Shown piece after piece: positions 1 through 15,955 of a stretch of DNA of 32,000 nucleotides. Below the pieces are notes generated by a model. The model did not search any database, was not told where the DNA came from, and saw nothing but the letters and a program-made list of their open reading frames with translations. Within the stretch, counting starts at the first letter, position 1. Each line of letters starts with the position of its first letter. Origin of the DNA: Propionibacterium ruminifibrarum (lineage in GTDB: Bacteria; Actinomycetota; Actinomycetes; Propionibacteriales; Propionibacteriaceae); NCBI RefSeq assembly GCF_900289195.1, contig NZ_OMOH01000002.1, positions 211,206-243,205 of the forward strand, written 5' to 3'. A program made the translations under genes and the position numbers.

Positions 1-1541
1 TCATCACGTTCCGCACCCTGAGGACCCTCGCGATCGCCTGCGCCCGCGCCGGGCTGGTCGCCGTGCGCTTCGCCTGGCGGGGCGACGCGGACTCCCACGG
101 GCTCACCGCGGAAACCGATCCGGCCGAGGCCTGGCGCTCGGACCTGACCCGGGTGCAGCAGTACGCCGCCGGGCTCCTGCCCTCGCACCCGGTGACAACG
201 GTGGGGCTGCGCCTGGGCTGCGCCGTCGCGGCCCGCACCAGCGCGGTGGAGCACCTCATCAGCTGGGAGCCGATCGACGGACGACGCCAGCTGCGCGAGC
301 AGCAGCTGCTGCGCAGCGTCGCGGTGCAGATCGCCCCCGAACCCGGCCTCACCGAGACACCTGGCCGGCACTGGACCTCCGCCCAGGCCGCATCCCTGCG
401 AACACTGCGCCTCGAGACCGGGCCGGGCACCGAGGTGCGCGTGATCACCGAGGAGGACCGTGAGGCAACCGAACGGCTGTACGCCGTCGCCCCGCACCTG
501 TCCAGGGTGCCGTGGGCGAGGATCGGCCAGATCGTCGCGATGATCCCGCGCGGGGCCCCGGGCACCGTCGAGTTCTCACCCGCCTGGTCCGTGCGCTCCA
601 GCTGCGGCGGCACGTCGATCATCGAGGAGTTCGTGAGCGTCGACGGGCTGCCCGGCGTCCTGACCAGGCCGGCGGGCGAACCCCGGCTGGCCGTCGTCTT
701 CACCAGCATCGGCGGCGAGCCGCGCGACGGCGGCACCGGGCTGTGGGCCCAGAGCGCACGCGAACTCGCCGCCGCCGGGGCCGCCAGCCTGCGATGCGAC
801 CGCACCGACCAGGGCGACGCCTACACCGGTGTCACCGACGGCGAACCCAACCCGTTCAACGACCAGGGCGTCATGGACTGCGTCAGCGCCCTGCGCGCCA
901 TGCACCGCGCCGTGCCGGGCGTTCCGGTGATGGCCGTCGGGGCGTGCATCGGCATGTGGCTGTTCGGCCGCGCCGCCGCCCACGCGCGCATCGACCACAT
1001 GGTCGTCCTCAACCCGACGGGCTGGAATCCCAGGCCACGCCACTACCGCAAGGTCCTCGAGGGCCCCTGGCTGAAGCAGTACCTGCAGCACCTGCGCGTC
1101 GACCGTCCCCTCACCGCCGGAGCCGCCGACGACGGGTGCACGCCCTACCAGCGGGCCAAGAGGTCCGCCAAGCGAGCCCGCCTGCGCCTGCTGCAGGCCA
1201 TGCCCCGCCGTACCTGGACGGCGCTGGCCGGGCTCGGCGTCCTCGACGACGCGGCGGTCCTGCTCGGCCAGATCCCGCCGACGACGGCCGTCGAGATACA
1301 CGTCGGCGAGGACGACGCCCCGCACTGGCGCACCGAGCGCGGCGACGAGGCCGTCGCCCGCCTCGACCGGCGAGGGCGGGCCGTCACGAGCAGTGCCGAG
1401 CGGACGCTCGACCACTCGCTGCTCGCCCATGCATCGCGGGCCCGGGCGCGCCGGATCATCCTTGACGCCGCCGCGAGACTCGCGGCAGGAGGCGCCCCAG
1501 CAGCTGCCGCGCACGGGTCGGGGACGGCTCCTCGGCCTTGA
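1..1541 (+). CDS. alpha/beta-hydrolase-fold protein with two hydrolase-like halves; 5' end cut by the window edge
   Basis: The frame of ORF 63..1541 stays open back to base 3, so the gene starts upstream of the window. 'VRFAWRGDADSHG' resembles the RFDxRGxGxSxG segment of S33/exosortase-associated-type hydrolases. There are two nucleophile-elbow-like pentapeptides: GLRLG (first half, no nucleophile) and GACIG (second half, Cys codon 945..947). Assignment is by motif only. Confidence 0.4.
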   Translation, partial: ITFRTLRTLAIACARAGLVAVRFAWRGDADSHGLTAETDPAEAWRSDLTRVQQYAAGLLPSHPVTTVGLRLGCAVAARTSAVEHLISWEPIDGRRQLREQQLLRSVAVQIAPEPGLTETPGRHWTSAQAASLRTLRLETGPGTEVRVITEEDREATERLYAVAPHLSRVPWARIGQIVAMIPRGAPGTVEFSPAWSVRSSCGGTSIIEEFVSVDGLPGVLTRPAGEPRLAVVFTSIGGEPRDGGTGLWAQSARELAAAGAASLRCDRTDQGDAYTGVTDGEPNPFNDQGVMDCVSALRAMHRAVPGVPVMAVGACIGMWLFGRAAAHARIDHMVVLNPTGWNPRPRHYRKVLEGPWLKQYLQHLRVDRPLTAGAADDGCTPYQRAKRSAKRARLRLLQAMPRRTWTALAGLGVLDDAAVLLGQIPPTTAVEIHVGEDDAPHWRTERGDEAVARLDRRGRAVTSSAERTLDHSLLAHASRARARRIILDAAARLAAGGAPAAAAHGSGTAPRP

Positions 1542-7690: not shown

Positions 7691-8257
7691 ATGACCGACC
7701 ACACCGATCACGCCGTCGCGCCGCCCCGCCACAGACTCGCCGAGTTCACCGGGCGAGGTTACGACAAGGGACGCGGAAGGCTCGTGTGCGCCGCGTGGGT
7801 GCTTCTCGCCGAGCCCATCCAGCGATCGGTGCTCGTCCCTCCCCGGCTGCGCACGCGCCTGCTGCGCGCCTTCGGCGCGAGGATCGGACGCGGCACGCTG
7901 ATCCGGCACGGCGTCCGCATCCACTGGCCGTGGAAGCTCACCGTCGGGCGTGACTGCTGGATCGGTGTCGGCGCACAACTACTCGACCTGGACCGCATCG
8001 TCATCGGCGACGACGTGTGCATCAGCCAGCAGGCCATGCTGTGCACCGCCTCGCACGACGCCGACGATCCCCGCTTCGAGATCCAGCTGGGGCCCATCAC
8101 CGTGGGCTCGGGAAGCTGGATCGCCACCCGTGCCACCGTGCTGCGCGGGGTCACCGTCGGCGAGGATGTCGTGGTGGGTGCGACCGCCCTGGTGACCAGG
8201 GACGTCCCAGACCGCACGAGGGTCCTGCCCCCCAGGCCGGAGGAGAAACCCCGGTGA
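7691..8257 (+). CDS. WcaF-like hexapeptide-repeat acetyltransferase
   Basis: ORF 7652..8257 begins with TTG. The preferred start is ATG 7691 (MTDHTDH...), with GAGGAG at 7672-7677. 'FGARIGRGTLIRHGVRIHWPWKLTVGRDCWIGVGAQLLDLDRIVIGDDVCISQQAMLCTASHD...ITVGSGSWIATRATVLRGVTVGEDVVVGATALVTRDVP' matches the WcaF-type colanic acid acetyltransferase layout. Confidence 0.7.
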   Translation: MTDHTDHAVAPPRHRLAEFTGRGYDKGRGRLVCAAWVLLAEPIQRSVLVPPRLRTRLLRAFGARIGRGTLIRHGVRIHWPWKLTVGRDCWIGVGAQLLDLDRIVIGDDVCISQQAMLCTASHDADDPRFEIQLGPITVGSGSWIATRATVLRGVTVGEDVVVGATALVTRDVPDRTRVLPPRPEEKPR

Positions 8258-10644
8258 GGATCCTGCAGATCGTCGCGGCAGTCAGTCCCGACAACGTCTA
8301 CGGCGGCCCCACGACCGTCGCCGTCAACCAGTGCCGTGCCCTGGCCGCAGCCGGTCACGAGGTGACGCTGGCCGCCATCGGCCTCGGCTTCGACGGCGAC
8401 CTGCCCGGCAGCTGGGAGGGCGTGCCCGTCCGGCTCTTCCCCGGCCGCAGGGTGATCCCGGGGGCCGGTTTCGCGGGCCTGACCAGCCCGGCCCTGCTCC
8501 GCTGGCTCACCCGGCACGCCCACGCATTCGACGTCGTCCACGTTCACCTGGCCCGTGACCTCGTCACGTTGCCCGCCGCCAGGATCGCCCAGCGCGCCGG
8601 GGTGCCGGTCTACGCCATGACGCACGGCATGATCGACGCCTCGGACAATCCGCTGGCCGCTCCCCTCGACGCGGCCATGACGGCACGGGTGCTGCGGAAC
8701 TGCGTCCGGGTCTTCCACCTCACCCGGCGCGAGCACGACGACCTTCGGTCACTGTTCGGCGATGGCCTGCGCCTCGCCGAGTTGCACAACGGCGTTCTCG
8801 TACCGGACCGTCCCCCCGAGCGCGATCCTCAGGCCGCGCCGACGGTCCTGTACCTGGCCCGCGTGCAGGAACGCAAGCGCCCCGGCACCTTCGTCGAGAT
8901 GGCCCGACGCCTGGCCGATGAATTCCCCACCGCCCGTTTCGTCATGATCGGCCCCGACGAGGGCCTCGGGGCCGAGCTGCGGTCGAAGATCGCCACGGCC
9001 GGGCTCGGCGACCGCCTGGTCTGGAAGGGACCGGCGACACACGCCGAGGGCATCCGCGCGATGGCCGAGTCCGACGTCTACGTGCTGCCCTCGGTCGACG
9101 AGCCCTATCCGATGAGCGTCCTCGAGGCCATGAGCCAGGGCCTGCCCGTCGTGCTGACCGACAGCTGCGGCCTGGCGCCGGTCGTCGCGCAGCACGACGC
9201 GGGCATCGTCACCGACGCCTCGGCCGCGCAGGTCACCTCCGCCGTCCGTGCGCTGCTCGCCGATCCGGCCGAACGCAGGGCCGCGGGGGAACGCGCCCAT
9301 GCCACGGCCCGCGACGAGTTCGGCATGGCGGCCATCGCCCAGCAGCTCGTCGACGCCTACTCGCTGGGCGCCCCGGACGCCGGGCGGTCCCCCGCCGCCG
9401 GGCCCGACACGGGTCGGCGTCCCGGACCGCGGAGAGTGCTGTTCGTCGGTATCAACTACGCCCCCGAGAGCACCGGTATCGCCCCCTACACCACGGGCAT
9501 GGCCGAACGGCTGCTCTCGGCGGGCCACCGGGTGCGGGTCATCACCGGGGTGCCCCACTACCCCTCGTGGTCGAACTTCACCGGGATGAGGGGGCTGCGC
9601 CGGCGCGAGCGCGTGCACGGTGTCAGCGTGCAGCGCATACGCCACTACATCGGTTCGGGCGGCCATGGACTGGGCCGCATCGGGCAGGAACTCAGCTTCG
9701 GCGCCGGTGCGGTCACCAGTTCATGGCGGGGTGCCGACGCCGTCGTCGCGGTGAGCCCGGCCCTGCTCGCCACGGCCTGCGTCGTGGCCCGCGCCAGGGC
9801 AGGCGGCAGGCCGGTGGGCGTGTGGGTGCAGGACCTCTACTCCTCCGGCGCGGCCGAGATCGAGAGGGCCGGGGTCGTCTCGCGGCTGCTCACCCGGGTC
9901 GAGTCCTGGGTGCTCGGCCATGCCGACGGCGTGCTCGTCATCCACTCGCGCTTCCGGGATCACGTCGTGAACGTGCTGGGCGTCGATCCCGACAGGGTCG
10001 CCGTGTGCCGCAACTGGTCCCACGTGGACACCGACCGGCACGACGAGGAACTGGCCGCCGCGTTGCGCCTCAAGTACTTCGGCGACGCCCCGCTCGTGGC
10101 CCTGCACACCGGGAACATGGGCGCCAAGCAGGGCCTGGAGACCCTGGTCGACACGGCCCGGTACGCCGAGCGGGCCGGTTCGCGCACGATCATCGCCCTC
10201 GTCGGCGACGGCTCGCGCCGGGAGGCGCTCATGGACTACGGCGCCGGTGCGCGGAACCTCGTCTTCGTGCCCTCACTGCCCGACGAGGAGTACCGCGCGA
10301 TCCTGTCGGCCGCCGACGTACTCGTCGTCAACGAGAAACCCGGGTTGCGCGAGATGGCGGTGCCCAGCAAGCTCACCACCTACTTCCGCAGCGGCAAGCC
10401 CGTTGTCGCGGCGACCGAGTCCGACTCGGCCACGGCCGACGAGATGGCCGCCGCCGGGGCCGGTCGGGTCGTCCCCCCGGCCGATCCCGCGGCCCTGCTC
10501 GCGGCGATCGAACAGGCTGCCGCCGACCCGGCGGGCTGCCGGGAGGCCGCCCGCAGCGCACAGCGTTTCGTCCACGACAGACTCACGGTCGAGGCAGCAG
10601 TCACGACCATGCGCGACTGGTTGTCCCAGATGACGAGTCGCTGA
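8254..10644 (+). CDS. fused bifunctional glycosyltransferase with two complete GT4 (GT-B) modules; the C-terminal module is WcaI/WbuB-like
   Basis: GTG 8254 is GTGA-coupled to the WcaF-like stop and gives 'MRILQIVAA...'. Module 1 carries EX7E ('EPYPMSVLE'). The linker is '[23 protein letters not shown]'. Module 2 opens with the WcaI-type N-terminus '[45 protein letters not shown]' and contains '...[17 protein letters not shown]'. No in-frame stop occurs anywhere from 8017 to 10644. Confidence 0.7.
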
Positions 10645-10715: not shown

Positions 10716-11789
10716 ATGGCACACCGCGCATTCATCACCGGTATCACCGGCCAGGACGGCTCCTATCTCGCCGAGTTCCTGCTCTCGAAGGGATACGAGG
10801 TGCACGGGCTCATCCGCCGGTCGTCGAGCTTCAACACGCACCGCATCGACCACCTGTACCGCGACCCGCACGACGAGTCGGCACGTCTGTTCCTGCACTA
10901 CGGGGACCTGTCGGACGGGGCGCGCCTGGTGACCCTGCTGCACGACATCAATCCCGACGAGGTCTACAACCTCGCCGCCCAGTCGCACGTCCGCGTCTCC
11001 TTCGACGAACCCGAGCACACCGCCGACACCACCGGCGTCGGCACGGTCCGCCTGCTCGAGGCAGTGCGCCAGTCGGGCATCGGGGCCCGGTTCTACCAGG
11101 CCTCCACCTCTGAACTGTTCGGTGCGACGCCCCCGCCGCAGAACGAGACCACCCCGATGTACCCGCGTTCGCCCTACGGCGCCGCGAAGATGTACAGCTA
11201 CTGGGTCACCAAGAACTACCGCGAGGCGTACGGCATGTTCGCGGTCAACGGCATCCTGTTCAACCACGAGTCCCCGCGCCGCGGCGGCACCTTCGTGACC
11301 CGCAAGATCACCCGGGCCGCGGCCGCCATCAAGGCCGGCCAGCAGGACGTGCTCTACATGGGCAACATCGACTCGATCCGGGACTGGGGCTACGCCGCCG
11401 AGTACGTCGAGGGCATGTGGCGCATGATGCAGGCCGACGAGCCCGAGGACTTCTGCCTGGCGACCGGCCGGGGCACGACGGTCCGCGAGTTCCTCGACTA
11501 CTCCTTCGGCCACCTCGACCTGGACTGGCGTGACCACGTGCGCTTCGACGAGCGCTATCTGCGCCCCACCGAGGTCGACGCCCTCATCGGCGACCCGACG
11601 AAGGCCCACGACAAACTCGGCTGGCACGCGCAGGTCGACGCCAGGGGTCTGGCCGAGATCATGGTTGACGCGGACGTCCAGATCCTCACCCACCACACCG
11701 ATCCGTGGATCGACGTCCCCCGGACGTCCTGGGCCGACCGGATTCCCCGGGTCGAGGCGACCTCCGAGACGGCGGGGGTGCGGGCATGA
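10716..11789 (+). CDS. gmd: GDP-mannose 4,6-dehydratase
   Basis: ATG 10716 lies inside ORF 9567..11789. '[27 protein letters not shown]...YGDLSD...[10 protein letters not shown]...[11 protein letters not shown]...[11 protein letters not shown]...[22 protein letters not shown]' is near-collinear with E. coli Gmd. Confidence 0.95.
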
Positions 11790-12796
11790 CCGGCGTGGAC
11801 TACACCCCGGCACCGATCGACCGGGACGCGGTCACCTACGTCGCCGGGCACCGGGGCCTGGTCGGCTCGGCGATCTGGCGCCGTCTTGAGCAGGAGGGCT
11901 TCAGCCGCCTGGCCGGCTCGAGCCATGCCGAACTGGACCTGACCGACCGGGACGCGGTCTTCGCCCACTTCGAGGCCGTCGGCCCCCGGTACGTCATCCT
12001 GGCCGCGGCCAAGGTCGGCGGCATCCTGGCCAACGACACCTACCCGGCCGATTTCTGGTCGGTGAACCTGCGCATCCAGACCAACGTCATGGACGCCGCG
12101 CTGGCCTGCGGCACCGAACGCCTGCTGTTCCTCGGCTCCTCGTGCATCTACCCGAAGCTGGCCCCCCAGCCGATCACCGAGGACCGCCTGCTCACCGGTC
12201 ACCTCGAGCCCACCAATGACGCCTACGCGATCGCCAAGATCGCCGGCATCATCGGCGTCCAGGCCGTTCGTCGCCAGTACGGTCTGCCGTGGATCTCGGC
12301 CATGCCGACGAACCTGTACGGTCCCGGGGACAACTTCGCCCTCGTCGGCTCGCACGTGCTGCCCGCGATGATCCGCCGGTACGACGCGGCGGTCGCCGAA
12401 GGGGCCACGCGCATCACGAACTGGGGCACCGGCAGGCCGCGCCGCGAGTTCCTGCACGTGGACGACATGGCCGACGCCTGCCTGTTCCTCCTGGACAACT
12501 ATGACGGCCCGACCCAGGTCAATGTGGGGACCGGCAAGGACTGCACCATCGCTGAACTGGCCGGCCTCGTGGCCGAGGCCACCGGCTACACCGGAGAGGT
12601 CGTCTGGGACACCACCAAGCCCGACGGCACCCCGCAGAAACTGCTCGACGTGAGCCTGCTGACCGGTATGGGCTGGCGGCCCCGCCACGGCCTGCGCGAG
12701 GGCATCGCCGACACGCTCGCCTGGTACCGGGAGCACCGGCAGAGCTTCCGCGACAGCGACACGGAGCAGCCGCGCAGCGGCGAGGGGCACGCGTGA
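11786..12796 (+). CDS. fcl: GDP-L-fucose synthase (GDP-4-keto-6-deoxymannose 3,5-epimerase/4-reductase)
   Basis: ATG 11786 is ATGA-coupled to the gmd stop. '[18 protein letters not shown]...[18 protein letters not shown]...[17 protein letters not shown]...[14 protein letters not shown]...[12 protein letters not shown]...[10 protein letters not shown]...[13 protein letters not shown]' is collinear with E. coli Fcl/WcaG. Confidence 0.93.
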
Positions 12797-14403
12797 TCGG
12801 CGGCCCGTGGGTCGACCAGTACCCGCCGGCGACCGAGACGGTCCTGCCACCGGTCACCGACGACATCGTGAGTCATCTCGGTCTGGAGACGGTCGACCCC
12901 GACCGGATCGCGATGCGCTGCCACGGGCGCACCCTCACCTACGGACGGCTCATCGAGGCTCACCGGCGCGTCGCCGCCGGCCTGGCCGGCGCCGGCCTCG
13001 GGCCCGGGGATCGGGTCGCCGTCATCGCCGGCACCGGGCCCGAGCATCTCATCGCGCTGCTGGCCGCCCTGCGCCTCGGCGCCATCGTCGTCGAGCACGA
13101 CACCGCGGCGACCTCCCACGAGCTGGCCGGCCTGTTCGCCGACCACGGTGCGCGCCTGGCATTCACCGACCCCGAGGTGGCCCCCCGGGTGCCCGGTGAC
13201 GTGCGGACCGTCGTCCTCACCGGGGAGCACCGGGCCGCGCCGGCCCACCCCCCGGGCTCTCCGGTCTGGGCAGATCTGAGCGGGCACGCGCCGCTCGGTG
13301 ACGAGGCACCGCGGCCCGCGCCGCAGGACACCGCGCTGCTGCTGTACACCTCGGGGTCCACCGGCCGGCCCAAGGGGGTGCCGTTCACCCACGCCATGAT
13401 CGGCCATGCGATCGACCAGAACCTCAACTTCTTCCGCATGCAGGGCCGTGGGGACGGCCGTCACTACCTGACGCTGCCGCTCAACCACGTCTTCGCGCTC
13501 GTGGATCAGCTGTTCAGCGCGCTGGCGCGCGCCGTCGAGCTCATCGCCTTCCGCCGGGGCGACATCGACGCCGTCGTGGCGGCCGCTGCGACCCGGCCGC
13601 CACGCAAGCTGGGCACCGTCCCGCCCGTCCTGGACGCCATCGCGGCCGGCGCGGCCAGGGCGGGCGTGCGCTTCGACGACCTCTACGTCGCCACCGGCGG
13701 GCTGCCCCTGACCCGGCGCACCGTCGACGCGTGGCTGCGGATCAGCGACAGCCCGCCCGTCAACGGCTGGGGCATGACCGAGTCCTGCGGCTACGGGCTC
13801 ATGCCCCTGCCCGACCCCGCCCGGGTGCCGGCCGGCAGCTGCGGGGTGCCACTGCCGGACCTCGACGTGCGGGTCTGCGACCCGGCCGATCCCACTCGCG
13901 AACTCGGCGTCGGCGAGACGGGTGAGCTCCAGCTGCGGGGACGCCTGGTCTTCGGCGGCTACTGGAACGACCCGCGGGCCACGGCCGAGGCCTTCACCCG
14001 CGACGGCTTCCTGCGCACGGGTGATCTGGTGAGCATGGACGGGCAGGGATTCTTCTTCTTCCACGGACGCCTCAAGGAGATCATCTCGGTCCAGGGCGAG
14101 AACGTCTCGCCGGTGGAGGTCGAACGAGTGCTCGAGGCCGCGCCGGGCATCGCACGCGCCTTCGTCTACCCCCGCGAGACGACGCCGGGGGTGAACATCC
14201 TCCTGGCCGCCTTCACCGCCGCCCCGGGAACCGCCGCCGACCCGGATGCCGCGCTCGCCCTGTGCGCCGAGCGGCTCGCCCCGTACAAGGTACCCATGCG
14301 CCTGACCCGGGTCGATACGCTGCCGCTGTCCGCCGCCGGAAAGCTGCGGCGCGACGTCGACGGACAGGCCTGGACGCGCGCGCATCGGGTGAGGGGGCAC
14401 TGA
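12793..14403 (+). CDS. adenylate-forming (ANL) enzyme, FadD-like acyl-CoA/acyl-carrier-protein ligase
   Basis: GTG 12793 is GTGA-coupled to the fcl stop. The N-terminus has a FadD-like 'WVDQYPP'. Core motifs are 'LLLYTSGSTGRPKGV', 'GWGMTES', 'GELQLRG', 'FLRTGDL', 'HGRLKEIISVQGENVSPVEVE' and the C-terminal 'AAGKLRR'. Confidence 0.85.
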   Translation: MIGGPWVDQYPPATETVLPPVTDDIVSHLGLETVDPDRIAMRCHGRTLTYGRLIEAHRRVAAGLAGAGLGPGDRVAVIAGTGPEHLIALLAALRLGAIVVEHDTAATSHELAGLFADHGARLAFTDPEVAPRVPGDVRTVVLTGEHRAAPAHPPGSPVWADLSGHAPLGDEAPRPAPQDTALLLYTSGSTGRPKGVPFTHAMIGHAIDQNLNFFRMQGRGDGRHYLTLPLNHVFALVDQLFSALARAVELIAFRRGDIDAVVAAAATRPPRKLGTVPPVLDAIAAGAARAGVRFDDLYVATGGLPLTRRTVDAWLRISDSPPVNGWGMTESCGYGLMPLPDPARVPAGSCGVPLPDLDVRVCDPADPTRELGVGETGELQLRGRLVFGGYWNDPRATAEAFTRDGFLRTGDLVSMDGQGFFFFHGRLKEIISVQGENVSPVEVERVLEAAPGIARAFVYPRETTPGVNILLAAFTAAPGTAADPDAALALCAERLAPYKVPMRLTRVDTLPLSAAGKLRRDVDGQAWTRAHRVRGH

Positions 14404-14404
14404 G

Positions 14405-14839
14405 ATGGGCGTCGGGATCGACATGGTCGACGTCGCCGAGGTGACGAGCGCCCTCGAACGCCACGGCAGGCACTACCTCGACCGGGTCTACGCACCGGCT
14501 GAGCAGGCCGAGACGGCCTCGATGAGTCCGCGCCGGATGCGCGAGTACCTGGCCGGGCGGTTCGCCGCGAAGGAGGCCGTGCTCAAGGCGCTGCGGCCGC
14601 CGCCCTGTGCGGCGGCCGCGCTGACGCAGATCGTGGTGACCGGGGCCGGGGGTGCTCCCCGCGTCGAGCTCGCCGGGAACCTGCTCGCGTGGTGGCGCTC
14701 GTCGGGGCACGGACCGGTGGACGTGTCCATCAGCCACACCAGGGTCATGGCGGTGGCCGTGGCCCGGACGGATCAGGGCCCGGGGCCCGGCACACAGGAA
14801 GGGGACGATGATGAGCAGGACGGAGCAGACGGTGCGTGA
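14405..14839 (+). CDS. acpS: holo-[acyl-carrier-protein] synthase (AcpS-type 4'-phosphopantetheinyl transferase)
   Basis: The ATG lies 1 nt after the ANL stop. 'GVGIDMVDVAEV...', 'LAGRFAAKEAVLKAL' and 'VSISHT' are the classic AcpS motifs. The acidic/Gly tail overlaps the next gene by 32 nt. Confidence 0.85.
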   Translation: MGVGIDMVDVAEVTSALERHGRHYLDRVYAPAEQAETASMSPRRMREYLAGRFAAKEAVLKALRPPPCAAAALTQIVVTGAGGAPRVELAGNLLAWWRSSGHGPVDVSISHTRVMAVAVARTDQGPGPGTQEGDDDEQDGADGA

Positions 14840-15053
14840 GGCGCTCGCCGAGGTGGGCAACCTGGACGAGGACGCGATGAGCCTCGCCGCGGACGCCTCG
14901 CTGGCCGACGCGGGACTGACCTCGCATGCGGCGGTCAGCCTGCTGCTCGAGATCGAGGACCGGCTCGGCATCGAGTTCCCACCCGAGCAGATGACGCCGG
15001 AGACCATGGCCTCGATCCGTGCGATCGAGGCGGGGATCGAGGCGCTGTCATGA
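14808..15053 (+). CDS. small stand-alone carrier protein (ACP/PCP-like, 81 aa)
   Basis: ATG 14808 lies inside ORF 14652..15053 and is preceded by AGGAAGGGGA. The four-helix-bundle-like sequence has its candidate phosphopantetheine site at 'ADAGLTSHAAVSLLLEIEDRLGIEF' (Ser codon 14922..14924). It sits between a PPTase and a carrier-protein ligase. Confidence 0.75.
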   Translation: MMSRTEQTVREALAEVGNLDEDAMSLAADASLADAGLTSHAAVSLLLEIEDRLGIEFPPEQMTPETMASIRAIEAGIEALS

Positions 15054-15955
15054 GCCTGGCCGCCAGTGAGACCACGCTGCGTGACGCGCTGCGCGACGCA
15101 GGGCACCTGCTTCCCGGCCCCCGCCCAGGGATCGACGGGCACGGCCCGGAGTTCGAGGCCGTCGTCGACGGGATCTGGCGGGCCTACTTCGACAGGGCGC
15201 CCGCCGGGACCCCGGTCATGGCCTTCGGCCCGCTCATCGACGCGGCCCAGTTCACCGCCACGGACTACCCCCGTTCTTTCCCGCACCTGGTCGGTGAGGT
15301 CGAGGTCTTCGACGGCGGTGACGCCGAGCACGGCGCCCTCATCCGGGACATCGATGCCGGGGCCGACTGGACGACGCACTTCGTCCCCAGTGGCATGACG
15401 TTCGTCCCGGCCACCTGCGAGAACGTCTACCCGCGCTACGCCGGCACGCTTGAGGGGCCGACGATCGTCGCCTGCCGCAGCTGGTGCTTCCGCCACGAGC
15501 CCAGCGACGACCCGATGCGCATGGTGAGTTTCCGCATCTGCGAGTACGTCTACCTGGGCTCTGCCGATGGCGCCGAGTCGTTCCGCACCGACTGGCTGGG
15601 GCTGCTCCTGGAGTTCTTCACCGATCTCGGCCTGGAGGTCGCCAGCGACCGCGCGAACGACCCCTTCTTCGGCCGGATCGGCGCGATGCTGGCGGCCAAC
15701 CAACGTCGGTCGGGCATGAAGAACGAGATCAGCATCGCCCTCTACCCGGACCGCCGTACCGCTATCTCGAGCGTGAACACGCACCGCACGCACTTCGCCG
15801 ACAGCTTCGGCATCCGGCAGGCCGGCGGTGAACCCGCCCACACCGCCTGCGCCGGCTTCGGCATCGAACGGGTCGCCATCGCCCTGTTCGCCGCCCACGG
15901 CATGACCACCGCCGACTGGCCGGAGCCGGTGCGTGCGGTCCTGCGGCTGCCCTGA
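15050..15955 (+). CDS. amino acid:[carrier protein] ligase, a truncated class II aminoacyl-tRNA synthetase (atypical SerRS-like catalytic core) homologue
   Basis: The start is ATGA-coupled to the carrier protein gene. The protein is 301 aa with no tRNA-binding domain. It has a motif 2-like 'CFRHEPS' and a motif 3-like 'CAGFGIERVAIALF'. A Cys123/Glu165/Cys267 trio sits in 'PATCEN', 'ICEYV' and 'TACAGFG', consistent with the Cys-Glu-Cys zinc site of this family. Assignment is by motif and context only. Confidence 0.7.
   Translation: MSLAASETTLRDALRDAGHLLPGPRPGIDGHGPEFEAVVDGIWRAYFDRAPAGTPVMAFGPLIDAAQFTATDYPRSFPHLVGEVEVFDGGDAEHGALIRDIDAGADWTTHFVPSGMTFVPATCENVYPRYAGTLEGPTIVACRSWCFRHEPSDDPMRMVSFRICEYVYLGSADGAESFRTDWLGLLLEFFTDLGLEVASDRANDPFFGRIGAMLAANQRRSGMKNEISIALYPDRRTAISSVNTHRTHFADSFGIRQAGGEPAHTACAGFGIERVAIALFAAHGMTTADWPEPVRAVLRLP

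What the first reader, a model, noticed from the sequence alone, without database searches (positions are those of the whole stretch)
12793..14403. A second, unrelated loading enzyme (FadD-like ANL) for a single carrier protein
Seen: a complete adenylate-forming enzyme lies immediately upstream of the PPTase, carrier and aaRS-like ligase. Its motifs are 'YTSGSTGRPKG', 'GWGMTES', 'TGD', 'GRLKEIISVQGENVSPVEVE' and a C-terminal Lys in 'GKLRR'. It also has a FadD-like N-terminal 'WVDQYPP'. Only one carrier protein gene is present.

Inference: two mechanistically unrelated ATP-dependent loaders share one carrier. That suggests one of three things: sequential chemistry (for example N-acylation of the aminoacyl-S-carrier to give a lipo- or acyl-amino acid), two alternative cargoes, or CoA-directed acyl activation feeding an acyltransferase. 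No condensation domain that would join the two cargoes is visible.
Basis: partly seen in the sequence, partly recalled or inferred. Interest (0 to 1): 0.6.

Follow-up and report, generated by a model that had tools for sequence, protein, structure and literature searches.

The report
Genus-specific FadD-derived ligase beside carrier cassette
A real, intact acid-activating enzyme sits directly before a carrier protein and its tRNA-synthetase-like loader in a sugar-polymer operon, but it was added only in the genus Propionibacterium, so whether it loads the carrier or makes an ordinary CoA thioester is undecided.

Summary
It is translationally coupled to fcl upstream and to the AcpS-type PPTase, carrier protein (CP) and Bll0957-type aa:CP ligase downstream.

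- Orthologues (64-77% identity) exist only in three other same-genus species, always in the same operon.
- The next relatives (35-40%) are ordinary ~555-aa actinobacterial FadD acyl-CoA ligases that are never linked to the ligase.
- Of 80 aa:CP ligase loci from many phyla, 3 have an ANL within 4.5 kb, about what chance gives. The usual partners are an ACAD-like protein, DUF1839 and a double alpha/beta hydrolase.
- The ANL has no FAAL insertion and no amino-acid-type A4 Asp.
- It sits on a very long branch inside the FadD clade and is the fastest-evolving gene of the operon. It has lost two conserved C-terminal basic residues.

New: the window's first gene is the cassette's usual double hydrolase, related to the exosortase-A 'hydrolase 2 + hydrolase 1' pair. 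It is a likely off-loader.

Best guess (0.4): the ANL supplies a second, acyl cargo through the carrier for polysaccharide decoration. A plain acyl-CoA ligase role is nearly as likely (0.33).

The scan had already noted this stretch on the same genome.

The parts
12793..14403 (+). ANL (class I adenylate-forming) enzyme, 536 aa. It is a FadD-derived carboxylic-acid ligase and the subject of the finding.
14405..14839 (+). AcpS-type 4'-phosphopantetheinyl transferase. It is deleted in two sister species.
   Evidence: Pfam ACPS 48.6 bits and TIGR00556 67.6 bits; deletion remnant in L083 and L084.
14808..15053 (+). Carrier protein, 81 aa, with the family-wide attachment motif G(L/M/F)TSHA.
   Evidence: PF00550 36.4 bits and NF005480 65 bits; alignment of 14 carriers.
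15050..15955 (+). Amino acid:[carrier protein] ligase, a truncated class II SerRS-like enzyme of the Bll0957 type.
   Evidence: PDB 4h2w E 1.3e-57 and NF005479 295 bits.
1..1541 (+). Double alpha/beta hydrolase (hydrolase-2-like plus hydrolase-1-like) and candidate off-loader. The gene starts about 223 nt before the window (G000:C19:210983-212746 = L108:12984-14747).
   Evidence: TIGR03101 and TIGR03100 hits; 30% identity, E 2e-27, to the hydrolase beside the cassette in L087; shared GLRLG and GxCxG elbows; co-occurs with the operon within the genus.
10716..12796 (+). GDP-mannose 4,6-dehydratase (10716-11789) and GDP-fucose-synthase-like epimerase/reductase (11705-12796).
   Evidence: PF16363 457 bits and PF01370 204 bits.
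7691..10644 (+). WcaF-like hexapeptide acyltransferase (7691-8257) and a fused pair of GT4 glycosyltransferases (8254-10644).

Best explanation
P0001 is a catalytically intact, fast-evolving offshoot of the actinobacterial FadD (long-chain acyl-CoA ligase) family. It was recruited, only in the genus Propionibacterium, into a carrier-protein-dependent module that decorates a fucose-containing exopolysaccharide.

The conserved core of that module is the carrier protein, its aa:CP ligase (which puts a small amino acid on the phosphopantetheine arm) and a double alpha/beta hydrolase that takes the cargo off.

The ANL adenylates a carboxylic acid that is not an alpha-amino acid and probably carries a polar group near the carboxylate. 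It most likely passes this acid as a thioester to the same carrier. That would give a second, acyl cargo, or the N-acyl cap of the aminoacyl cargo, which the Cys-type hydrolase domain or a hexapeptide acyltransferase moves to the polymer.

Shown here: gene integrity, family origin, operon coupling, taxonomic restriction and rate acceleration. Inferred: the acceptor (carrier rather than CoA), the substrate class and the transfer step.
For: - Integrity: the ORF and all core motifs are kept in 4 species, with H232, E330, R426 and K517 invariant. The AF2 model has pLDDT 94.3 and a canonical ANL fold.
- Coupling: the start overlaps the fcl stop, and the stop lies 1 nt before the PPTase start.
- Co-inheritance: ANL, CP, ligase and the double hydrolase are present together in 4 of 8 same-genus genomes and all absent from the other 4.
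- ANL-CP-ligase is retained where the PPTase gene was deleted.
- Rate: the clade sits on a 1.41 substitutions/site stem inside the FadD clade (SH-aLRT 98). It has lost a ~30-aa FadD segment. Its dN/dS is 0.43-0.61 against 0.11-0.34 for its neighbours. Together these fit a change of function.
- Lost basic residues: R/K502 and R/K512, present in 74% and 81% of 77 CoA-ligase homologues and in FadD13, are M and L in all four operon ANLs. Position 502 lies in the helix-to-strand loop of the C-terminal domain. PMC8460268 describes that class of site as holding the Arg/Lys that bind CoA's bisphosphate.
- Precedent: exosortase-A EPS loci hold an ACP-hydrolase 2-hydrolase 1 operon together with an ANL (TIGR03098).
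- The genus's carrier differs from other family members in helix II.
Against: - There is no FAAL insertion. The alignment to the CoA ligase FadD13 is continuous from A5 to A8.
- All close sequence and structural relatives are CoA ligases.
- The ANL is not a conserved partner of aa:CP ligases. The carrier clearly belongs to the ligase.
- The locus has two hexapeptide acyltransferases, which normally take acyl-CoA.
- A higher dN/dS can also mean relaxed constraint.
- The mapping of positions 502 and 512 to CoA contacts is by analogy, not by superposition.
- There are no biochemical data, and no RNA evidence for this gene.
Confidence: 0.4

Rival explanations
1. The ANL is an ordinary acyl-CoA synthetase. 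It makes a special acyl-CoA, for example a hydroxy-, keto- or medium-chain acyl-CoA, that one of the two hexapeptide (WcaF-like) acyltransferases of the locus puts on the polysaccharide. The carrier protein serves only the aa:CP ligase.
For: - It nests in the FadD CoA-ligase clade.
- The best PDB match is FadD13, at E 7e-50.
- It has no FAAL insertion.
- The Foldseek neighbours are 4CL, MenE and benzoate-CoA ligase.
- WcaF-like and a second hexapeptide acyltransferase are in the locus.
- The PPTase-CP-ligase cassette works without any ANL in 10 other Propionibacteriaceae genomes and in most of the 80 wider loci.
Against: - The gene was inserted exactly at the PPTase-CP boundary with translational coupling.
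- Two conserved C-terminal basic residues are lost.
- The long stem branch and the changed pocket residues show it is not a standard FadD.
- The genus otherwise lacks this FadD type, and the gene travels only with the operon.
Confidence: 0.33
2. The ANL acts as an amide-forming ligase. It adenylates an acid and transfers it directly to the free amino group of the aminoacyl-S-carrier, giving an N-acyl-aminoacyl-S-carrier without any condensation domain.
For: - Gene order runs ANL-PPTase-CP-ligase and there is a single carrier.
- No condensation domain was found in the window.
- Related precedent: HitB, listed in PDB as an ATP-dependent beta-aminoacyl-ACP synthetase, is among the PDB matches (records that it loads beta-Phe in a HitB-HitD didomain). 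ANL enzymes that acylate aminoacyl-ACPs, such as VinM, are my recollection and were not tested.
Against: - FadD-type enzymes normally transfer to thiols.
- Nothing in the sequence marks amide formation.
- The Cys-type hydrolase could do this step instead.
Confidence: 0.12
3. The ANL is a passenger. It is a relocated FadD copy under relaxed selection, with no role in the polysaccharide or carrier pathway.
For: - It has the highest dN/dS of the operon.
- It is 64-77% identical between species where its neighbours are 79-93%.
- It is absent from all other aa:CP ligase cassettes of the family.
Against: - dN/dS is still well below 1.
- The frame is open and every catalytic motif is kept in four species.
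- It is retained while the adjacent PPTase gene was cleanly deleted in two species.
Confidence: 0.1

Closest known systems
Actinobacterial long-chain-fatty-acid--CoA ligases of the PRK05605 type (for example Propioniciclava, Tessaracoccus and Terrabacter FadD, ~555 aa)
   Same: They are the nearest relatives, at 35-40% identity. The operon ANLs share a starred clade with them. They have the same N-terminal W..Y..GV start and the same A3-A10 motifs.
   Different: - P0001 scores 334 bits against a cut-off of 766.
- It lacks a ~30-aa segment between A2 and A3.
- It has changed residues at F231, G235, Y280, Y326, G467, E468, R/K502 and R/K512.
- It lies in an EPS operon, not at the unlinked FadD locus.
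Mycobacterium tuberculosis FadD13 (PDB 3R44), a verified fatty acyl-CoA ligase
   Same: It is the best solved-structure match by sequence (E 7e-50). The alignment is continuous through A5-A8, so P0001 has the FACL architecture, not the FAAL one.
   Different: Overall similarity is low (173 bits over about 470 aligned residues; identity not computed). FadD13 has K and R at the two C-terminal positions where P0001 has M and L. The genomic context differs.
aa:CP ligase systems Bll0957, Bll6282 and Atu2573 with their carrier proteins (Mocibob et al. 2010, cited in PMC9437257)
   Same: The downstream ligase and carrier belong to this system. The biological role is still called unknown in the 2022 review.
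   Different: The usual cassette is [PPTase]-CP-ACAD-like-ligase-DUF1839 and/or a double hydrolase. Here the ACAD-like gene and DUF1839 are missing from the whole genome, and a FadD-derived ANL has been added.
Exosortase-A (XrtA/PEP-CTERM) EPS loci: ANL TIGR03098, PLP decarboxylase TIGR03099, ACP, hydrolase 2 (TIGR03101) and hydrolase 1 (TIGR03100)
   Same: It is an EPS locus that combines an ANL, a small carrier protein and the hydrolase 2/hydrolase 1 pair. The unusual elbows GLRLG and GxCxG are shared with the window's double hydrolase.
   Different: - P0001 is not a TIGR03098 member (174 bits against a cut-off of 592).
- The carriers are not detectably similar by BLASTP.
- There the hydrolases are two separate proteins.
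- There is no aa:CP ligase there and no decarboxylase here.
- The function of that system is also untested.
DltA/DltC (D-alanylation of teichoic acids) and AlmE/AlmF/AlmG (glycine on Vibrio lipid A; reference list of PMC11631085)
   Same: An ATP-dependent loader puts a small amino acid on a dedicated carrier for transfer to a cell-envelope glycopolymer. This is what the ligase-carrier pair here probably does.
   Different: In those systems the loader is itself an ANL specific for an amino acid. Here the amino-acid loader is aaRS-like, and the ANL has His, not Asp, in motif A4, so it is not an amino-acid loader. No MBOAT or DltD-like protein is present.
Vibrio cholerae O1 tetronate genes (wbeK-O, with wbeL required; PMC3441752)
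   Same: A polysaccharide locus in which an ATP-binding ligase-like gene is needed to attach an unusual acyl group to a sugar made through Gmd. That an ACP and a hexapeptide acyltransferase are its neighbours is my recollection and was not tested.
   Different: It is a different lineage, and no aaRS-like ligase is present. No sequence comparison was made here.

Membership tests
ANL superfamily (class I adenylate-forming enzymes) | An AMP-binding N-terminal domain plus a small C-terminal domain, both above the Pfam cut-offs. | tested here: met
   PF00501 scores 222.5 bits (cut-off 29.9) and PF13193 scores 31.3 bits (cut-off 24.5). The AF2 model has pLDDT 94.3, and the Foldseek top hits are all ANL enzymes.
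ANL superfamily (class I adenylate-forming enzymes) | Core motifs A3 (P-loop), A5 (..TE), A7 (TGD) and A8 (R.K....G), and the A10 catalytic Lys. | tested here: met
   All are present. E330, R426 and K517 are invariant in an 81-sequence alignment.
FadD-type long-chain-fatty-acid--CoA ligase (NCBIfam NF004114 / PRK05605 equivalog) | A whole-protein score above the curated cut-off. | tested here: not met
   The score is 334.2 bits against a cut-off of 766. P0001 is nested in the clade but on a 1.41 subst/site stem and with a ~30-aa deletion.
FadD-type long-chain-fatty-acid--CoA ligase (NCBIfam NF004114 / PRK05605 equivalog) | Thioester formation with CoA. | not testable with these tools
   This needs an enzyme assay. 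R/K502 and R/K512, conserved in homologues, are M and L here.
Fatty acyl-AMP ligase (FAAL) | The FAAL-specific insertion in the N-terminal domain relative to FACLs. | tested here: not met
   The alignment to the FACL FadD13 has no insertion longer than 3 residues between A5 and A8. No FAAL appears among the best 60 sequence matches or the best 50 structural matches in PDB.
Fatty acyl-AMP ligase (FAAL) | The FAAL-specific helix and a plugged canonical CoA pocket (PMC8460268). | tested here: inconclusive
   The position I take to equal FadD13 A253 is Pro (VPPVL), not Phe, but the chain numbering offset is assumed. No residue-level superposition was available.
NRPS-type or DltA-type amino-acid adenylation domain | Asp at the A4 'FDxS' position that binds the alpha-amino group, and a score above the TIGR01733 cut-off. 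| tested here: not met
   A4 reads PLNHVFA, with His232 invariant as in acyl/aryl-CoA ligases. TIGR01733 scores 183.5 bits against a cut-off of 317.4. That Asp235 is the amino-binding residue is established knowledge recalled by me.
Exosortase-A-associated acyl-CoA ligase (TIGR03098) | A score above the cut-off and a neighbouring TIGR03099 decarboxylase. | tested here: not met
   The score is 174.3 bits against a cut-off of 592. No decarboxylase is in the window. A true member scores 778 bits.
Conserved component of the aa:CP ligase cassette | Co-location with the ligase across lineages. | tested here: not met
   It is linked in 4 of 4 Propionibacterium species that have it. It is linked in 0 of 10 other Propionibacteriaceae genomes with the ligase. 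Unrelated FadD-type ANLs lie within 4.5 kb in only 3 of 80 wider loci.

The most novel reading that the evidence does not exclude
Two evolutionarily unrelated adenylating enzymes, a class II aaRS-like ligase and a FadD-derived ANL, load the same small carrier protein. A Cys-type alpha/beta hydrolase, not a condensation domain, then joins the acyl and aminoacyl cargoes and places an N-acyl amino acid on a fucose-containing exopolysaccharide. This would be a minimal thiotemplated pathway without a condensation domain. It would also give the orphan aa:CP ligase family a defined biological role.
Probability: 0.12. Interest if true: 0.8.

Novelty: new variant of a known kind. Interest (0 to 1): 0.45.

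Why it matters
The biological role of aa:CP ligases has been open since 2010, and a 2022 review still calls it unknown.

This locus places one such ligase in a polysaccharide operon with a candidate off-loading hydrolase. In one culturable genus it also carries an extra acid-activating enzyme. Natural comparison strains exist: species with and without the PPTase, sister genera without the ANL, and same-genus genomes without the whole locus.

That makes two questions directly testable:
- Is the aminoacyl-carrier used to decorate a glycan?
- Can a FadD-type enzyme be retargeted from CoA to a carrier without FAAL features?

If the ANL turns out to be a plain CoA ligase, the finding is an ordinary accessory gene of an EPS locus.

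Tried and rejected
- **FAAL reading:** rejected. There is no insertion relative to FadD13, and no FAAL appears among the PDB neighbours.
- **Amino-acid loader (DltA or A-domain) reading:** rejected. A4 has His, not Asp, and TIGR01733 scores below its cut-off.
- **Membership of TIGR03098:** rejected on score.
- **ANL as a conserved cassette partner:** rejected by the 80-locus and 150-genome surveys. A rough expectation from 7 ANL genes in 2.78 Mb is about 4 loci of 80 with an ANL inside 20 kb; 6 were seen.
- **Hinge Asp to Gly (position 425) as a sign of lost thioester chemistry:** dropped. Gly occurs in 19 of 77 homologues.
- **RNA evidence:** the one metatranscriptome holds only small contigs on fcl and the ligase. 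Lack of cover over the ANL means nothing.
- **Habitat from runs:** not pursued beyond noting the run labels.
- **Papers:** Mocibob 2010 (PNAS) and Craig 2011 (J Bacteriol) are not held. Haft 2006 does not mention the hydrolases, ligase or carrier.
- **Carrier comparison:** BLASTP between the window's carrier and the XrtA-locus ACP found no similarity.
- **Pocket reading:** residue-level reading from the AF2 model was not possible because coordinates are not returned.
Full report
**1. What is there**

The window has 70% G+C, and third-position GC singles out the real frames. On the + strand, a gapless gene string runs as follows:
- WcaF-like hexapeptide acyltransferase (7691-8257)
- a fused pair of GT4 glycosyltransferases (8254-10644)
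- Gmd (10716-11789)
- an Fcl-like epimerase/reductase (11705-12796)
- the ANL enzyme (12793-14403)
- an AcpS-type PPTase (14405-14839)
- an 81-aa carrier protein (14808-15053)
- a 301-aa homologue of the amino acid:[carrier protein] ligase Bll0957 (15050-15955; PDB 4h2w E 1e-57; NF005479 295 bits)

After that comes a convergent hrpA. Its GTG start overlaps the fcl stop, and its stop lies one base before the PPTase ATG.

**2. Which kind of ANL**

- The best solved relative is the fatty acyl-CoA ligase FadD13 (E 7e-50). Feruloyl-, malonyl-, oxalate- and 4-coumarate-CoA ligases follow.
- The best NCBIfam model is the FadD equivalog PRK05605, but at 334 bits against a cut-off of 766.
- The alignment to FadD13 is continuous from A5 to A8.
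- Motif A4 reads PLNHVFA, with the His that is invariant in 77 acyl/aryl-CoA-ligase homologues. It does not have the Asp of amino-acid-activating domains. TIGR01733 scores below its cut-off.
- An AlphaFold model built on 81 sequences is confident (pLDDT 94.3). It superposes best on 4CL, MenE, benzoate-CoA ligase and CahJ structures, and no FAAL is in the top 50.

So this enzyme activates a carboxylic acid. It is not a second amino-acid loader and it is not a FAAL.

**3. Where else it occurs**

In the 5.8-billion-protein collection, proteins 64-100% identical are labelled Propionibacterium (P. australiense at 76%). The next hits drop to 35-40% and are ~555-aa 'long-chain-fatty-acid--CoA ligase' proteins of Propioniciclava, Tessaracoccus, Terrabacter and Microbacterium.

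I also searched 150 genomes of the family.
- Orthologues (65-77%) occur only in three same-genus genomes. These are exactly the three that also have the aa:CP ligase.
- Four other same-genus genomes have neither gene.
- In those three species the operon is the same: WcaF-GT-Gmd-Fcl-ANL-(PPTase)-CP-ligase. In two of them the PPTase gene has been deleted down to a ~130-nt remnant, while ANL, CP and ligase stay intact.
- In the six other family genomes that have both the ligase and a FadD-type hit, the two genes lie on different contigs or 175 kb apart.
- The window's genome has no other copy of this FadD type. Its six further ANL genes are 26-28% identical.

**4. What aa:CP ligase cassettes normally look like**

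I collected 80 loci around ligase homologues (38-46% identity) from Actinomycetota, Pseudomonadota, Gemmatimonadota, Planctomycetota, Myxococcota, Chloroflexota and Bacillota. Counts of neighbours (within 3.5 kb of the ligase; 4.5 kb for the ANL) are:

| Neighbour | Loci of 80 |
|---|---|
| ACAD-like gene between carrier and ligase | 72 |
| DUF1839 protein | 62 |
| ~525-aa double alpha/beta hydrolase | 29 |
| ANL within 4.5 kb | 3 |

The ANLs beside the cassette in L057 and L076 are FadD-like but belong to other ANL lineages. Six of the 80 loci have any ANL inside their 20 kb. With 7 ANL genes in 2.78 Mb one expects about four, so there is no enrichment.

In other genera of the family, a short cassette (PPTase-CP-ligase, without ACAD) occurs without any ANL. 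In G098 it lies convergent to a WcaF-GT-GT-Gmd-Fcl operon. In Kocuria the full cassette lies next to Gmd (80% identical), Fcl and a GT4.

The link between the carrier cassette and GDP-fucose polysaccharide genes is therefore older and wider than the ANL. The ANL is a genus-level addition.

**5.

The hydrolase next to the cassettes matches 'hydrolase 2' (TIGR03101) with its N-terminal half and 'hydrolase 1' (TIGR03100) with its C-terminal half. Both are named 'exosortase A system-associated'.

The window's own first gene is a homologue. It starts 223 nt before the window (L108:12984-14747). It is 30% identical (E 2e-27) to the one directly upstream of PPTase-CP-ligase in L087.

It shares the odd nucleophile elbows of the true XrtA proteins:
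- G-L-R-L-G, with Arg where the nucleophile would be, in the hydrolase-2 half
- G-x-C-x-G, a Cys nucleophile, in the hydrolase-1 half

Within the genus it is present 11-13 kb from the ANL in G051 and G090, and it is also present in G123. It is absent from the four genomes that lack the operon.

In an Undibacterium XrtA locus I found an ACP-hydrolase 2-hydrolase 1 operon 15 kb from a true TIGR03098 ANL and its PLP decarboxylase. A 'carrier + hydrolase 2/1' unit thus serves EPS loci in two phyla. It is found there with an ANL in the same locus (whether that ANL loads the ACP is untested) and here with an aaRS-like loader. The Cys-type domain is a plausible off-loading transferase. The genome has no ACAD-like or DUF1839 homologue.

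**6. How the ANL has evolved**

- In a maximum-likelihood tree, the four operon ANLs form one clade on a stem of 1.41 substitutions per site. The clade is nested (SH-aLRT 98) among FadD proteins whose branches are 0.2-0.5. This was a quick LG+G4 search, so long-branch caution applies. The identity ranking agrees with it.
- They lack about 30 residues that the FadD clade has between A2 and A3.
- Pairwise dN/dS is 0.43-0.61 for the ANL, against 0.11-0.34 for the other six operon genes measured. The gene is constrained, but it is the fastest-evolving in the operon.
- At positions conserved in 77 homologues, all four operon ANLs differ: F231 to N/H and G235 to A/S (A4, next to the acyl pocket), Y280L, Y326W (A5), G434Q, G467V, E468N, R/K502M and R/K512L.

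The two lost basic residues are in the C-terminal domain. Position 502 lies in the loop between the last long helix and the next strand of the model. PMC8460268 describes that class of site as holding the Arg/Lys that bind CoA's 3',5'-bisphosphate. FadD13 has K and R at these positions. This fits a shift away from CoA, but the mapping is by analogy only.

The genus's carrier also differs from other family members in helix II (AVSLLLEIE against SVNVMLxLE). That may reflect a new partner or simple divergence.

**7. Reading**

Shown:
- The ANL is intact and is not an amino-acid loader.
- It is FACL-like in architecture and FadD-derived.
- It was recruited once, in one genus, next to a pre-existing PPTase-CP-ligase unit of an EPS locus that also encodes the cassette's usual hydrolase.

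Inferred:
- It supplies a second, acyl substituent.
- I put carrier loading at 0.4. The grounds are position, coupling, retention with the carrier, rate shift, the lost basic residues and the XrtA precedent.
- I put CoA-directed activation for the hexapeptide acyltransferases at 0.33. The grounds are family, architecture and the independence of all other cassettes from an ANL.
- Direct N-acylation of the aminoacyl-carrier gets 0.12, and a passenger gene gets 0.1.

**8. Other observations**

- Near-identical copies of the fcl-to-ligase stretch occur on contigs of animal faeces, goat and sheep gut, and one food-fermentation metagenome. Contigs bridge fcl-ANL-PPTase and ANL-PPTase-CP-ligase.
- RNA contigs touch only fcl and the ligase and allow no conclusion.

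**9. Verdict**

The gene and its setting are real. 'Two loaders for one carrier' is a reasonable but unproven reading of a genus-specific variant of the aa:CP ligase cassette. The value lies mostly in making the ligase system testable, with an off-loader candidate and natural comparison strains. The ANL itself adds less.

Noticed in passing
window 1-1541 (+); full gene L108:12984-14747: A double alpha/beta hydrolase related to exosortase-A 'hydrolase 2 + hydrolase 1'. Its elbows are GLRLG and GACIG (Cys). It is a homologue of the protein that flanks aa:CP ligase cassettes in other Propionibacteriaceae and is a candidate off-loading transferase. In G051 the match carries one in-frame TGA, possibly upstream of the true start.
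   Followed up: yes
L083:5093-5229 and L084:9696-9814: In two sister species the PPTase gene between the ANL and the carrier is deleted, leaving ~120-140 nt that still begin with the PPTase's ATGGGC. Another PPTase must arm the carrier there.
   Followed up: partly
L002-L081: The usual aa:CP ligase cassette is [PPTase]-CP-ACAD-like-ligase-DUF1839. ACAD is present in 72 of 80 loci, DUF1839 in 62 and the double hydrolase in 29. ACAD-less cassettes mostly carry the hydrolase (5 of 8).
   Followed up: partly
L039, L053 (Kocuria) and L086 (G098): The carrier cassette lies beside Gmd, Fcl and GT4 genes in Kocuria and in another Propionibacteriaceae genus. The link to GDP-fucose polysaccharide genes therefore recurs beyond the window's genus.
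   Followed up: partly
L110:8678-10628 (-) and L109:8203-11027 (+), Undibacterium G151: An XrtA/PEP-CTERM locus holds an overlapping ACP-hydrolase 2-hydrolase 1 operon 15 kb from the TIGR03098 ANL and TIGR03099 decarboxylase pair. That the ACP belongs to the hydrolase pair is visible in the gene order.
   Followed up: partly
window 14808-15053: The attachment motif G(L/M/F)TSHA, which looked non-canonical, is shared by all 14 carriers of aa:CP ligase cassettes that I aligned. The Propionibacterium carriers differ from the rest in helix II and in the following loop.
   Followed up: partly
whole genome G000: The genome has no ~555-aa FadD of the kind found once per genome in about a third of the family's genomes. 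It also has no ACAD-like or DUF1839 homologue of the cassette type.
   Followed up: partly
window 13001-14000: The ANL body has the highest G+C of the window (0.75, against about 0.70 for its neighbours). This may be a trace of separate origin.
   Followed up: no
window 10716-15955: Near-identical DNA occurs in contigs from runs labelled animal faeces, goat gut, sheep and food fermentation metagenomes.
   Followed up: partly
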